A stretch of DNA of 64,000 nt from NCBI RefSeq assembly GCF_048403405.1, contig NZ_CP183129.1, one strand, 5' to 3'. Position numbers: made by a program. Source of the stretch: Escherichia coli. GTDB taxonomy: Bacteria; Pseudomonadota; Gammaproteobacteria; Enterobacterales; Enterobacteriaceae. This document shows positions 9,500 through 12,400 of the stretch, in pieces; the stretch's first letter is position 1; each line of letters begins with the position of its first letter.

Positions 9500-12400
9500 G
9501 GTTATGCGCTGATGCCTGATGCGGCGCGGGCGCGTCTTATCATGCCTGGAAGTCTGCGCCCGAATCGTAGGCCGCCTCCGCTATATTAACTGGCATTGGC
9601 AAATTACTCGTCACTACCTTTATTCATGTTTTTTTGGTCTTCATCCGGATAATGTTTTTTTAGATATTCCAGGACGTTTTTATTGACCTTGTGTTGCGTA
9701 TACACCCACCCTTTCCAGTAATCAGGCTGGTCCAGGTAAACTTCTGGCGGAATGGTGAAATCAGAAAGCGTTAACCATTCGGCTAACAGATCGGGGTTTC
9801 GTTTCTGGATTAACTGCAACAGCATAATCAGTGACATAGCTGAGGCAGGAGCCGTACTATCGCCACTTAAATATTTCCACACTGTTGACCGGTTCGAACG
9901 AAAAAGGATCGGTAGCAATGCCCGGTCCAGATTCATTTCATTAAAAATCTTCTCAAATTCATTCATTTAAATTTTCCTGCCTGGCGTAAACCTCTTAAAA
10001 ATTGAGATTTATCAAAGAAACGCATTTTAGCACACATCAGGAACCGGTTCACGTTTAGTCCAGAAACAGAATTTATTTCGCTTATCAAAACAAGTCTTTA
10101 CTCTTTTTTACATTGAAAGAGCACAAAATGATTTTCGATTTTATTTATATAAGAAACATTTTTTGTTTCTTATTGGTTGTGTTTACGCTTACACCAGACA
10201 AAAATGCGCTTTACATCACACAAATGGCGGCGTAGATTTCGATTAAATTGCAACGCAGTTTATTTCTTAAAACAATATTATTTGTTTCTTATAGAAACAT
10301 TAATGCGACTTATTTTGAACAAGAGAAAATGAATGAAAACTGTAAACGTAGCTTTACTGGCACTCATAATTTCAGCAACATCCAGCCCTGTTGTTTTAGC
10401 TGGTGATACCATTGAAGCGGCGGCAACAGAGCTTTCAGCCATTAACTCTGGCATGTCGCAATCGGAGATTGAGCAGAAGATTACCCGCTTTTTAGAACGC
10501 ACAGACAACAGCCCCGCTGCGTATACCTATTTGACTGAACATCACTACATCCCTTCTGAAACACCTGATACCACTCAGACTCCCACTGTCCAGACAGATC
10601 CTGACGCAGGACAAAAAACCGTTGCCGCTACAGGTGATGTACAGACAACCGCCCGTTATCAGAGCATGATCAACGCCCGACAGTCTGCGGTAACTGATGC
10701 CCAGCAAACGCAAATTACAGAGCAACAGGCGCAGATCGTAGCCACACAAAAAACGCTCGCCGCGACTGGAGATACGCAAAATACTGCGCATTATCAGGAG
10801 ATGATTAATGCCAGACTGGCGGCTCAAAATGAGGCTAATCAGCGCACTACCACGGAACAAGGGCAGAAAATGAATGCACTGACAACCGATGTGGCAGCAC
10901 AACAGCAAAAAGAAAGGGCTCAATACGATAAACAAATGCAAAGTCTGGCGCAGAAGTCTGTCCAGGCACATGAGCAAATTGAAAGTCTGAGACAAGATTC
11001 CGCACAAACGCAGCAACAGTTAACCAACACGCAAAAACGGGTCGCAGATAACAGCCAACAAATTAACACGCTCAATAACCATTTCGATTCTCTGAAAAAC
11101 GAAGTTGAGGACAATCGTAAAGAAGCCAATGCGGGAACTGCATCTGCCATCGCTATCGCCTCACAACCACAGGTGAAAACCGGTGACTTGATGATGGTGT
11201 CAGCGGGAGCGGGAACGTACAACGGTGAATCTGCGGTGTCTGTAGGAACATCTTTTAATGCCGGAACGCATACGGTACTTAAAGCAGGTATTTCTGCGGA
11301 TACACAATCTGATTTCGGTGCGGGTGTCGGCGTGGGATATTCGTTCTAATTTTAACAGCAATTTCTTATTCGCAATTTTCCGTACATTATTTAAGGTTAA
11401 CAATGATGAATAGCTCCATTAAATCGTTTTCCCTGCTGGCGGTTATATTACTGGCTGGCTGTAGTTCACCCACTTCCCGCATCGCAGATTGCCAGGCGCA
11501 GGGCGTCAGCCATGACACCTGTTATCTCGCAGAACAACAGCGTCAGGCGGCTATTTTAAGTGCATCAGAAGCGCAGGCATTTAAAAATGCAGAAGCCGCA
11601 CAACATGCCCAGGCCGCTAAAAAATCTATTTATAAAGGATTTGGCATGACCTTTAGAATGAGCAGTAAGAACTTTGCTTATCTCAATGATTCATTATGTG
11701 CAATTGATGAAGACAATAAAGATGCCACTGTTTATCAGTCAGGTCTTTATAACGTCATTGTTTATCACCACACGGGAAAAGTCGCCTTAATGAAGGAAGG
11801 TCAGTTTGTGGGTTATTTAAAATGAAAGAGCAAAGGAAAATCCCCCTGACGCATATTATGATTATCGGTGCGTTTATTTTTGCCTTCTTGCAAGTGGTGT
11901 TATTAGCCTCCCTGGTTCACGCTGTGAATGTTAACAACGAAATCCAGGAAGGCTTATTTCAGTCGGGGCGCATTATGGTAGAAAGTTTGCAGCATATTCT
12001 TTCGGTGCAAACGGGGATTAACTGATTTTCACCCCGCCCGATGATGACAGCAGCCGGAGAGATTTTCGATAATCGGGCAGTCGGCGCTGTCATCGCCAGG
12101 GCAGGCATTCGCCAGCGCCAACAGCTGGTTGCGCATGGATTGCAGTTCTTCGATATGTCGCTCGATCTCCGCCACTTTCTCCAGGGTGCGACGTTTGACG
12201 TCGGCACTGTGACGCTGCGGATCGTTAAACAGATTCACCAGTTCGCCGCTCTCTTCCAGGTTAAAGCCCACCTGGCGCGCCTGGCGCAGTAAGGTCAGTT
12301 CGTTGAGATGCTGCTGCGTGTAGGTTCGATAACCATTTTCGCTGCGCATCGGCGGCGTCACCAGCCCCTTCTCTTCATAGAAGCGAATGGCTTTGCTGGT

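What the first reader, a model, noticed from the sequence alone, without database searches (positions are those of the whole stretch)
10612..10870. Tandem ~43-aa repeat inside the YadA-like stalk
QKTVAATGDVQTTARYQSMINARQSAVTDAQQTQITEQQAQIVAT is followed immediately by QKTLAATGDTQNTAHYQEMINARLAAQNEANQRTTTEQGQ. This is a duplicated coiled-coil segment at the DNA level (~129 bp unit) and could vary in copy number between strains, changing stalk length.
Basis: seen in the sequence. Interest (0 to 1): 0.4.

Follow-up and report, generated by a model that had tools for sequence, protein, structure and literature searches.

The report
Old stalk duplication in E. coli adhesin

Summary
The repeat is real. 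Two adjacent segments, aa 94-138 and 139-178 (nt 10612-10866), share 24 of 40 residues. Their alignment scores 115, against 28 +/- 5 for shuffles and at most 32 for other coiled-coil stretches. The period is 45 aa (135 nt), not about 43 aa (129 nt).

At the DNA level the copies are only 61% identical (40% at third codon positions), and Tandem Repeats Finder calls nothing.

The gene (10333-11349) has a signal peptide, an all-helical stalk and a YadA-type anchor. It lies in O-island 29 between ybbJ and cueR.

The two units are old paralogues, types A and B, which predate the split of Escherichia species.

In about 1,030 complete E. coli genomes with this 338-aa allele, every sampled copy has the same length. 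So this pair is not a variable-number repeat here.

Orthologues at the same locus do vary:
- Extra A units, 85-93% identical in DNA, give three units in E. ruysiae, E. whittamii and others.
- Unit A is mostly 38, 45 or 52 aa long.
- A separate 369-bp module, absent from this window, occurs 1-5 times, giving proteins of 338 to 963 aa.

Verdict: an ordinary modular adhesin stalk.

Side finding: this gene is Z0639, published as the transcription factor "GmrA".

The parts
10333..11349 (+). Gene for a 338-aa trimeric-autotransporter-type protein. It is the orthologue of E. coli O157:H7 Z0639 ('gmrA') in O-island 29.
   Evidence: ORF listing. Pfam YadA_anchor, E = 2.7e-12. PDB matches to the AtaA, Hia and YadA anchors. 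RefSeq name 'YadA family autotransporter adhesin'. The published gmrA deletion arms and cloning primers map onto its flanks and ends.
10333..10401 (+). Probable Sec signal peptide, aa 1-23 (MKTVNVALLALIISATSSPVVLA, followed by GD).
   Evidence: Read directly from the sequence: a basic N-terminus, a hydrophobic core and a VLA/AFA-type cleavage motif. It is conserved in all alleles. No signal-peptide predictor was available.
10405..10548 (+). Conserved small helical N-terminal domain, aa 25-72, likely the tip of the fibre.
   Evidence: Many invariant columns across 20 alleles. AF2 gives helices 27-34, 43-56 and 61-69 at pLDDT about 77. No Pfam match.
10549..10611 (+). Pro/Thr-rich linker, aa 73-93. 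In longer alleles the distal stalk, including the 123-aa module, sits between this point and unit A.
   Evidence: Allele alignment. AF2 shows no secondary structure here and pLDDT below 50.
10612..10746 (+). Repeat unit A, aa 94-138 (45 aa). It consists of a conserved core, QKTVAATGDVQTTARYQSMINARQ, and a Q-rich linker of about 21 residues.
   Evidence: The core HMM scores 59.6 bits.
10747..10866 (+). Repeat unit B, aa 139-178. Its core is QKTLAATGDTQNTAHYQEMINARLAAQNEAN.
   Evidence: The core HMM scores 57.3 bits. AF2 breaks the helix at G146-D147.
10867..11142 (+). Membrane-proximal coiled-coil stalk, aa 179-270. It contains a weak 42-nt (14-aa) internal repeat at 10928-10989.
   Evidence: AF2 gives a continuous helix 148-277 with pLDDT 82-97. 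The heptad phase is stable over roughly aa 185-256. The 42-nt spaced direct repeat is family D4. The same 42-bp period is called by TRF in L017. A 14-aa deletion lies here in L003.
11167..11346 (+). YadA-type beta-barrel membrane anchor, aa 279-338, ending in GVGYSF.
   Evidence: Pfam PF03895 positions 1-60 of 60, 47 bits against a cut-off of 22.7. PDB chains 9vnj, 2gr7, 3emo and 2lme.
9604..9966 (-). Divergent 120-aa ORF, the Z0640 orthologue. It is always next to the adhesin gene.
   Evidence: The z0640 deletion arm maps to 9967-10004.
11403..11825 (+). A 140-aa lipoprotein (lipobox LLAGC), the Z0638 orthologue, immediately downstream in every allele.
   Evidence: Only sub-threshold NCBIfam hits to TraV and to the XAC1346 chaperone family.
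11822..12025 (+). A 67-aa ORF that overlaps the lipoprotein stop and is conserved in all loci.
   Evidence: Annotated in all related loci. The window coordinates were derived from the offset to L013.

Best explanation
The two segments are an ancient tandem duplication of one stalk module in a small trimeric autotransporter that has no recognisable head domain. The protein runs: signal peptide, a roughly 45-aa helical tip domain, a Pro/Thr linker, unit A, unit B, a heptad coiled coil, and a YadA-type anchor.

Each unit has a conserved core of about 24 residues. A T-G-D motif in that core probably interrupts the helix. A Q-rich coiled-coil linker follows.

In the assembled trimer (inferred), the units act as rigid spacer and connector elements of about 6-7 nm each. 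They hold the N-terminal tip away from the outer membrane.

The A/B pair arose before the Escherichia species diverged. It has since drifted to about 60% DNA identity, so in this 338-aa allele it is fixed at two copies and is not recombinogenic.

Stalk length in the family changes in three other ways:
(i) recent re-duplication of unit A, where the copies are 85-93% identical in DNA;
(ii) small in-frame insertions or deletions in the Q-rich linkers, mostly of 7 or 14 aa;
(iii) gain and loss of a separate, nearly identical 369-bp (123-aa) distal module. The window's allele has lost that module altogether, which makes it the shortest form.

Shown here: the homology, its age, fixation in this allele, and polymorphism in orthologues. 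Inferred: trimer formation, surface location, the spacer role, and the nature of the TGD discontinuity.
For: Repeat significance and controls.

DNA decay and lack of a detectable array: 61% identity overall, 40% at third positions, a longest exact run of 9 nt, and no TRF call.

Architecture:
- YadA_anchor only; no head or stalk Pfam family.
- Matches to solved anchor structures.
- AF2 helices 103-145 and 148-277.

Same locus in all alleles, ybbJ-Z0640-adhesin-Z0638-67aa-cueR.

A and B unit types are orthologous across E. coli, E. marmotae and E. ruysiae.

Fixation in this allele:
- 43 of 43 sampled repeat regions span exactly 401 bp, among about 1,030 genomes.
- 29 of 29 sampled genes span exactly 1017 bp.
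- The 1187-member cluster shows 338 aa in all 15 listed members.

Polymorphism elsewhere:
- 7 of 120 protein clusters have 3 units.
- Extra A units are 89%, 93% and 85% identical in DNA, with exact runs of 41-111 nt. TRF calls them as 114 bp x 2.5-2.8 copies and 156 bp x 2.4 copies.
- E. whittamii has 3 units, spaced 52 and 38 aa.
- Unit A spacing is 38, 45 or 52 aa in almost all alleles; rare alleles have 32, 39 or 41.
- The 369-bp module occurs 1-5 times in 351 complete genomes (612 places, median 2). One allele has 4.9 copies at 98% identity and encodes 963 aa.

Helix breaks fall on the TGD motif of all five units in the two AF2 models.
Against: Trimerisation, surface exposure and adhesion were not tested and cannot be tested with these tools.

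Deleting the whole O-island 29 did not change adherence of O157:H7 to HeLa or Caco-2 cells (PMC5826968). The protein was published as a DNA-binding activator of fliA, on EMSA and ChIP evidence.

The AF2 models are monomers of low to moderate confidence (mean pLDDT 63.8 and 49.4). A glycine may break a predicted helix for trivial reasons.

Fixation rests on samples of rows, not on all 1,030 genomes. Rare singleton variants do exist in metagenome assemblies: 332 aa with a 6-aa linker deletion, and a 334-aa cluster with 41-aa spacing.
Confidence: 0.85

Rival explanations
1. One reading: the pair is an active variable-number tandem repeat (a contingency-type locus) in this strain's lineage. Copies would be gained or lost by slippage or unequal recombination, changing stalk length between isolates.
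For: The same unit is duplicated again in some orthologues. The family carries a true VNTR of another module.
Against: The window copies are 61% identical in DNA, and the longest in-register exact run is 9 nt. TRF reports nothing. No length variant was seen in the sampled genomes, among the cluster members or among the top database hits.
Confidence: 0.04
2. The similarity is a by-product of biased composition: Q/A/T-rich coiled coil resembling other coiled coil, with no common origin.
For: The stalk is compositionally biased. It attracts spurious sub-threshold hits to SMC, ATG16 and CCDC93 coiled coils.
Against: The score is 115, against 27.7 +/- 5.1 for shuffles and at most 32 for other stalk windows of the same composition. 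Eleven unit columns are invariant across 12 diverse units. A profile of the unit finds only 10 representatives among 1.84 billion proteins; all that could be placed are YadA-anchor proteins, fragments of this family, or a 2246-aa protein matched only over 12 profile positions that was not examined.
Confidence: 0.01
3. The conserved cores are functional sites rather than plain spacers. They could be a ligand-binding motif or a special non-heptad connector, such as a beta-layer-like hexad that rotates the three chains. On this view selection keeps two of them. This overlaps with the best explanation.
For: The cores are far better conserved than the neighbouring stalk. Between the window and O157 alleles there are 0/45 and 1/40 aa differences in the units, against 12/92 in the proximal stalk. 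V-A-A-T-G-D-V has hexad spacing and resembles the beta-layer consensus [aliphatic]-A-T-K-[polar]-[DE] (PMC4786415). The heptad phase jumps at each core. AF2 breaks the helix at all five TGD motifs. The O145 allele lost exactly 20 aa (6 + 14) together with the core.
Against: Only 3 of 6 motif positions match the published consensus. No solved structure resembles the unit by sequence. The models are monomers of low confidence. The low divergence of the 5' half of the gene may simply reflect a recombination mosaic (0 of 279 nt differ upstream).
Confidence: 0.25
4. The protein is what the literature says: GmrA, a cytoplasmic transcription activator. On this view the repeated helical segments serve oligomerisation or DNA binding at the fliA promoter.
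For: Yang et al. 2018 report loss of motility on deletion, complementation, EMSA and ChIP-qPCR at the fliA promoter, and a CDD-predicted 'DNA-binding domain' (PMC5826968). This is repeated in reviews from 2021 and 2024.
Against: The deleted and cloned gene is exactly this ORF. It has an N-terminal signal-peptide-like sequence, a full-length YadA_anchor (E = 2.7e-12) and a C-terminal aromatic residue. No DNA-binding family appears in Pfam at E up to 0.1 or in NCBIfam at E up to 0.01; only sub-threshold SMC-type coiled-coil matches do. A homologous adhesin is mis-named 'chromosome segregation ATPase' by one source, which shows how such a label can arise.
Confidence: 0.07

Closest known systems
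Saa, the STEC autoagglutinating adhesin (an E. coli trimeric autotransporter on pO113)
   Same: It is a short E. coli trimeric autotransporter whose gene size differs between strains because of the number of direct repeat units near the 3' end. Five variants are known (PMC4060028). This is the same phenomenon that the OI-29 gene family shows.
   Different: The repeat units are not detectably related. A tblastn search of plasmids matches only the anchor region. Saa is plasmid-borne. In the window's allele the repeat is old and fixed rather than variable.
BadA and other long trimeric autotransporters with repeated neck/stalk modules (Hia/Hsf; UspA1/A2 from my own knowledge)
   Same: They have modular, highly repetitive passengers with length variation in the stalk between strains (review PMC7247748). 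The 369-bp module (1-5 copies) in the long OI-29 alleles behaves this way.
   Different: The OI-29 protein has no recognised head, neck or Pfam stalk motifs. It is far smaller (338 aa here). Its unit is confined to Escherichia and a few Enterobacteriaceae proteins.
GmrA (Z0639) of O-island 29, E. coli O157:H7
   Same: It is the same gene. The window copy is 95.9% identical in DNA to the O157 copy. The published deletion arms and cloning primers map exactly onto its flanks and ends.
   Different: It was published as a cytoplasmic DNA-binding activator of fliA. The sequence shows a secreted, outer-membrane-anchored fibre. The repeat and the autotransporter nature are not mentioned in the paper: the terms 'autotransporter' and 'YadA' occur 0 times.
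Beta-layer (hexad/nonad) discontinuities in trimeric coiled coils (Hartmann et al. 2016, eLife, PMC4786415)
   Same: Hexad spacing between core hydrophobic residues (V-A-A-T-G-D-V), a small residue in second position, an acidic residue before the next core position, and occurrence in an autotransporter stalk.
   Different: The consensus is only partly matched: A-A-T-G-D against A-T-K-polar-D/E. There is no trimer structure. The evidence is limited to low-confidence helix breaks in monomer models.
Head-less, mostly coiled-coil trimeric autotransporters such as NadA and Omp100/ApiA (own knowledge, not tested here)
   Same: The passenger is dominated by coiled coil, with a small N-terminal tip instead of a beta-rich head. 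Allelic forms differ by in-frame stalk insertions or deletions.
   Different: No sequence relationship was found outside the anchor. The functions of NadA and ApiA cannot be transferred.

Membership tests
Trimeric autotransporter adhesins (type Vc secretion) | C-terminal YadA-type anchor (four beta-strands per chain) ending in an aromatic residue | tested here: met
   Pfam PF03895, positions 1-60 of 60 at aa 279-338, E = 2.7e-12, 47 bits against a cut-off of 22.7. PDB anchors of AtaA, Hia and YadA match. The protein ends in GVGYSF.
Trimeric autotransporter adhesins (type Vc secretion) | N-terminal Sec signal peptide | tested here: inconclusive
   MKTVNVALLALIISATSSPVVLA|GD has the classical n-h-c layout and is conserved in all alleles. 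No dedicated predictor was available, so this rests on inspection.
Trimeric autotransporter adhesins (type Vc secretion) | Coiled-coil stalk running into the anchor | tested here: met
   AF2 gives a helix 148-277 at pLDDT 82-97 leading into the anchor. The heptad phase is stable over roughly aa 185-256.
Trimeric autotransporter adhesins (type Vc secretion) | Obligate homotrimer displayed on the cell surface, with adhesive function | not testable with these tools
   Only monomer models were possible. The published delta-OI-29 mutant adhered normally to HeLa and Caco-2 cells.
YadA-like stalk or head (Pfam YadA_stalk, YadA_head, Hep_Hag, HIM) | Match to the stalk or head repeat families | tested here: not met
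   No such family at E up to 0.1 for the window protein, or at E up to 0.01 for four longer alleles. 'YadA-like' applies to the anchor only.
Variable-number tandem repeat / contingency locus | Head-to-tail copies with DNA identity high enough for slippage or unequal crossing-over | tested here: not met
   In the window: 61% identity, a longest exact run of 9 nt, and no TRF call. The feature is met only in other alleles: 85-93% for extra A units and 98% for the 369-bp module.
Variable-number tandem repeat / contingency locus | Copy number differs among closely related isolates | tested here: not met
   For the 338-aa allele, all sampled genomes and cluster members have the same length. It is met for the 369-bp module in long alleles, with 1-5 copies.
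Beta-layer (alpha/beta coiled coil) element | Hexad or nonad spacing with the consensus [aliphatic]-A-T-K-[polar]-[DE], forming a three-residue beta-layer in the trimer | tested here: inconclusive
   The spacing fits and 3 of 6 motif positions fit. Helix breaks fall at TGD in monomer models of low confidence. No solved relative exists. A trimer structure is needed.
Transcription factor 'GmrA' as published | A recognisable DNA-binding domain | tested here: not met
   Pfam at E up to 0.1 and NCBIfam at E up to 0.01 give no DNA-binding family. Only far-sub-threshold coiled-coil matches appear (SMC_prok_B, 23.7 bits against a cut-off of 567).
Transcription factor 'GmrA' as published | Cytoplasmic location and promoter binding in vivo | not testable with these tools
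   EMSA and ChIP are reported in PMC5826968. The sequence features (signal peptide, beta-barrel anchor) argue for export.

The most novel reading that the evidence does not exclude
The protein that carries this repeat, published and still reviewed as the cytoplasmic transcription activator GmrA (Z0639), may in fact be an exported, outer-membrane-anchored trimeric fibre. Its length ranges from 338 to 963 aa between E. coli strains through modular stalk repeats. On this reading its effect on fliA and motility is indirect (for example through envelope or surface signalling) rather than by promoter binding. Its conserved T-G-D cores would be a previously undescribed non-heptad connector motif restricted to Enterobacteriaceae autotransporters.
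Probability: 0.55. Interest if true: 0.5.

Novelty: new member of a known kind. Interest (0 to 1): 0.3.

Why it matters
In itself, little: repetitive, length-variable stalks are a textbook property of trimeric autotransporters, and the pair in this window is a fossil duplication.

It matters somewhat in three ways.

1. It defines an uncharacterised fifth type of E. coli trimeric autotransporter, beside Eib, Saa, UpaG and EhaG. About a quarter of complete E. coli genomes carry it, including O157:H7, O55:H7, ExPEC and EAEC 042.

2. Its stalk length varies almost three-fold through a clean 369-bp VNTR, which automatic annotation largely misses.

3. The sequence evidence contradicts the published molecular role of the same gene as a transcription factor. 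This affects how the OI-29 motility phenotype should be interpreted.

Tried and rejected
- Tandem Repeats Finder and seed-based repeat finding on the window found no array. They returned only short chance-level families.
- A sequence search of the PDB with the unit profile gave no hit even at E = 10.
- A tblastn search against plasmids matched only anchor regions, so there is no link to the Saa repeats.
- A heptad-phase scan showed phase jumps at both unit cores, but it cannot tell which kind of discontinuity is present.
- The AF2 monomer models gave useful secondary structure only. The anchor and linker are unreliable, so no fold search was run.
- The promoter and terminator scan was uninformative, at or near shuffle expectation.
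- I looked for a third, degenerate unit downstream of unit B. The core HMM gave nothing above -0.5 bits, and that weak hit lay inside unit A's linker.
- I considered that the 349-aa and 339-aa RefSeq proteins (L001, L002, L014, L017) were N-terminally truncated pseudogenes. I rejected this: the full ORFs of 471, 594, 580 and 963 aa are intact, and the annotation merely starts internally.
- The genome-wide motif scan produced 10 single matches outside Escherichia. Their translations show unrelated proteins, so these are chance matches.
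Full report
**The observation**

ORF 10333..11349 (+) encodes a 338-aa protein. 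Unit 1 is aa 94-138 (nt 10612-10746). Unit 2 is aa 139-178 (nt 10747-10866).

- Without gaps, 24 of 40 residues are identical.
- The BLOSUM62 local score is 115. In 5000 shuffles of unit 2 the score was 27.7 +/- 5.1, with a maximum of 58.
- As a stricter control, I aligned each unit against every other 40-aa window of the same coiled-coil stalk and against the distal stalk of a longer allele. The best scores were 32, 29 and 31.

Three corrections are needed.

- The register offset is 45 aa (135 nt), not about 43 aa (129 nt).
- The similarity is concentrated in a core of about 24-28 residues, QKTVAATGDVQTTARYQSMINARQ.
- The DNA copies are only 61% identical (73/120). Third codon positions are 40% identical, and the longest in-register exact run is 9 nt.

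Tandem Repeats Finder reports nothing in 10300-11400, even at a minimum score of 30.

**The gene**

Pfam finds only a complete YadA_anchor at aa 279-338 (E = 2.7e-12). Solved anchors of AtaA, Hia and YadA match the same region.

No head, neck or stalk family matches, in this protein or in four longer alleles.

The N-terminus, MKTVNVALLALIISATSSPVVLA|GD, reads as a Sec signal peptide. I judged this by inspection; no predictor was available.

An AF2 monomer model (mean pLDDT 63.8) gives these elements:

- a small helical domain at aa 27-69;
- an unstructured Pro/Thr linker;
- helices 103-145 and 148-277, the second at pLDDT up to 97.

This is the architecture of a small trimeric autotransporter without a recognisable head. 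Trimer formation and surface display are inferred, not shown.

**The locus and its literature**

The window is E. coli chromosome. The gene lies between qmcA-ybbJ and cueR. It is flanked by a divergent 120-aa ORF upstream and by a 140-aa lipoprotein and a 67-aa ORF downstream. This is O-island 29 of O157:H7.

The lambda-Red arms published for deleting 'gmrA' (Z0639) map exactly to the flanks of this gene in O157. One arm maps to window 10294-10332. The published cloning primers begin with ATGAAAACTGTAAACGTAGCTTTA (MKTVNVAL) and end on the codons for GVGYSF.

So this protein is GmrA. It was reported as a DNA-binding activator of fliA (PMC5826968) and is still listed as such in 2021 and 2024 reviews.

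I find no DNA-binding family. Only far-sub-threshold coiled-coil look-alikes appear, such as SMC_prok_B at 23.7 bits against a cut-off of 567. One source names a homologous adhesin 'chromosome segregation ATPase', which shows how such labels arise. I flag this conflict but cannot resolve it with these tools.

**Age of the duplication**

Orthologues at the same locus were recovered from E. coli, E. marmotae, E. ruysiae, E. whittamii and unnamed Escherichia species. All have a first unit of type A (…AATGDVQTaARYQSMI[DN]ARQ…) and a last unit of type B (…GDaQTsAHYQEMvNARLaAQN[DE]AN…).

- A units from different alleles and species are 70-85% identical to each other.
- B units are 57-90% identical to each other (lowest for the E. 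ruysiae B unit).
- A versus B is only 42-60%.

The A/B duplication therefore predates these lineages. The near-saturated third positions agree with that.

**Does copy number vary?**

In this allele it does not.

- The gene occurs in 1,382 of 5,426 complete E. coli genomes, and 1,027 of them hold the full-length 338-type allele.
- All 29 sampled copies of that allele span exactly 1017 bp.
- The repeat region with its flanks is at least 95% identical in about 1,030 genomes, and all 43 sampled copies span exactly 401 bp.
- The 90%-identity protein cluster has 1187 members, and all 15 listed are 338 aa.
- A search of 5.8 billion protein clusters shows no one-unit or three-unit derivative of this allele. 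It shows only rare singletons with 2-13-aa deletions, mostly from metagenome assemblies.

In the family as a whole it does.

- An HMM of the unit core counts three units in 7 of 120 clusters: 480 aa in E. ruysiae (spacing 52, 52), 497 aa in an Escherichia species (38, 38) and 577 aa in an E. coli (121, 52). E. whittamii also has three units (52, 38).
- The 497-aa allele exceeds its 459-aa sibling by exactly one 38-aa unit.
- The extra A units are young. They are 89%, 93% and 85% identical in DNA, with exact runs of 41-111 nt. TRF detects two of these arrays, as 114 bp x 2.5-2.8 copies and 156 bp x 2.4 copies.
- Unit A is 38, 45 or 52 aa long in nearly all alleles; rare alleles have spacings of 39 or 41. 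One O145:H28-type allele has lost 20 aa including the core, leaving 32.

**A larger and more active repeat elsewhere in the gene**

Long E. coli alleles carry a 123-aa (369-bp) distal stalk module, which the window's allele lacks entirely.

- In 351 complete genomes it occurs in 612 places, 1-5 per genome, with a median of 2.
- Strain 18KM2445 has 4.9 copies at 98% identity and a 963-aa protein.
- EAEC 042 has three copies.

RefSeq annotation starts these genes internally, giving products of 339-349 aa, and leaves most of the array unannotated. The full ORFs are nevertheless intact.

At 0.148 nm per residue (my assumption for a coiled coil), a unit adds about 6-7 nm and a module about 18 nm.

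**Nature of the unit**

The unit is narrowly distributed.

- A profile of 12 units finds only 10 representatives among 1.84 billion proteins.
- Eight of them belong to this family (some only fragments) or are a few other YadA-anchor proteins from E. coli, Enterobacteriaceae bacterium FGI 57 and metagenomes. Each of those other proteins carries one or two units.
- The other two are a 64-aa peptide matched only over the core and a 2246-aa protein matched over 12 profile positions. I did not examine the second.
- A back-translated motif scan of one genome per species hit multi-copy matches only in Escherichia.
- No solved structure matches the unit.

The core shows hexad spacing, V-A-A-T-G-D-V. 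It partly resembles the beta-layer consensus [aliphatic]-A-T-K-[polar]-[DE] (PMC4786415).

The heptad phase jumps at each core. AF2 interrupts the helix at the TGD of all five units in two models, although confidence there is low.

The cores are also much better conserved than the adjacent stalk. Between the window and O157 alleles there are 0/45 and 1/40 aa differences in the units, against 12/92 in the proximal stalk. The gene is, however, a recombination mosaic, so this comparison is weak evidence.

I therefore treat 'special connector' as a plausible refinement (about 0.25), not a finding.

**Comparison with what is known**

Repeat-number variation in autotransporter stalks is well established.

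- The saa gene differs in size through the number of 3' direct repeats (PMC4060028).
- BadA varies in its neck-stalk length, and these adhesins are described as modular and highly repetitive (PMC7247748).
- That review lists only Eib, Saa, UpaG and EhaG as characterised E. coli members, so the OI-29 protein is an uncharacterised addition.
- The Saa repeats are unrelated in sequence to the unit described here.

**Verdict**

It is right about the gene family and wrong about this particular pair in this allele.

The feature is an ordinary instance of a known kind, which sets the interest score at 0.3. The GmrA annotation conflict and the unannotated 369-bp VNTR are the more noteworthy by-products.

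Noticed in passing
window 10333-11349: This YadA-anchor gene is the orthologue of O157:H7 Z0639, 'GmrA', published as a DNA-binding transcriptional activator of fliA. The published deletion arms and cloning primers map exactly onto it. The sequence shows a signal peptide, a coiled-coil stalk and a beta-barrel anchor, and no DNA-binding family. No paper in the searched library notes the conflict.
   Followed up: partly
L017 3032-4853 (E. coli 18KM2445); also L002, L014; absent from the window: Long alleles of the same gene carry a 369-bp (123-aa) tandem module at 98% identity. It occurs in 1-5 copies among 351 complete E. coli genomes, giving proteins of 471 to 963 aa. The window's 338-aa allele lacks the module entirely.
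   Followed up: yes
L001 1724-3139, L002 1277-3061, L014 1139-2881, L017 2735-5626: RefSeq/PGAP annotates these long alleles from internal start codons (339-349 aa, no signal peptide) and leaves the repeat array as unannotated DNA. The full-length ORFs with signal peptides are intact.
   Followed up: yes
window 10405-10548 (aa 25-72): A small, well-conserved helical N-terminal domain is present in every allele whatever the stalk length (AF2 pLDDT about 77, no Pfam match). It is a candidate functional tip of the fibre.
   Followed up: no
window 11403-11825 and 11822-12025: A 140-aa lipoprotein (lipobox LLAGC; Z0638) and an overlapping 67-aa ORF follow the adhesin gene in every locus examined. 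Only sub-threshold hits to TraV and to the XAC1346 secretion-chaperone family were found. They could be a biogenesis partner, by analogy with SadB (my own knowledge).
   Followed up: no
window 10928-10989: A weak 42-nt (14-aa, two-heptad) direct repeat lies in the proximal stalk. Some alleles have a 14-aa deletion (L003) or smaller deletions here. TRF calls the same 42-bp period in L017.
   Followed up: partly
window 10333-11349 compared with L004 2501-3517: Divergence from the O157 allele is mosaic: 0 of 279 nt differ in the first 93 codons, 1.5-4.2% in the units, and 9.4% in the proximal stalk. A 345-aa protein (P0012) combines this allele's N-terminus with the 52-aa unit A of the long alleles. 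Both point to recombination between alleles.
   Followed up: partly
window 12433-36548 (- strand): Next to cueR lie a HlyD-type adaptor (12433-13608), a type I secretion ABC transporter (13605-15767) and an intact 6925-aa ORF (15771-36548). The last corresponds to the BapA-related adhesin SiiEA, which is annotated as frameshifted in strain TUM14771, whose adhesin gene is 100% identical to the window's.
   Followed up: no
P0139 cluster (Enterobacteriaceae bacterium FGI 57 and metagenomes): A 363-aa YadA-anchor protein with one copy of the unit is named 'chromosome segregation ATPase' by one source. This illustrates how coiled-coil adhesins pick up SMC-type or DNA-related labels.
   Followed up: no
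L016 846-2156 (E. coli O145:H28 RM12581): In the 436-aa allele, unit A has lost exactly 20 aa including the TGD-ARYQSM core, leaving 32 aa. So some strains effectively carry one intact unit plus a remnant.
   Followed up: partly
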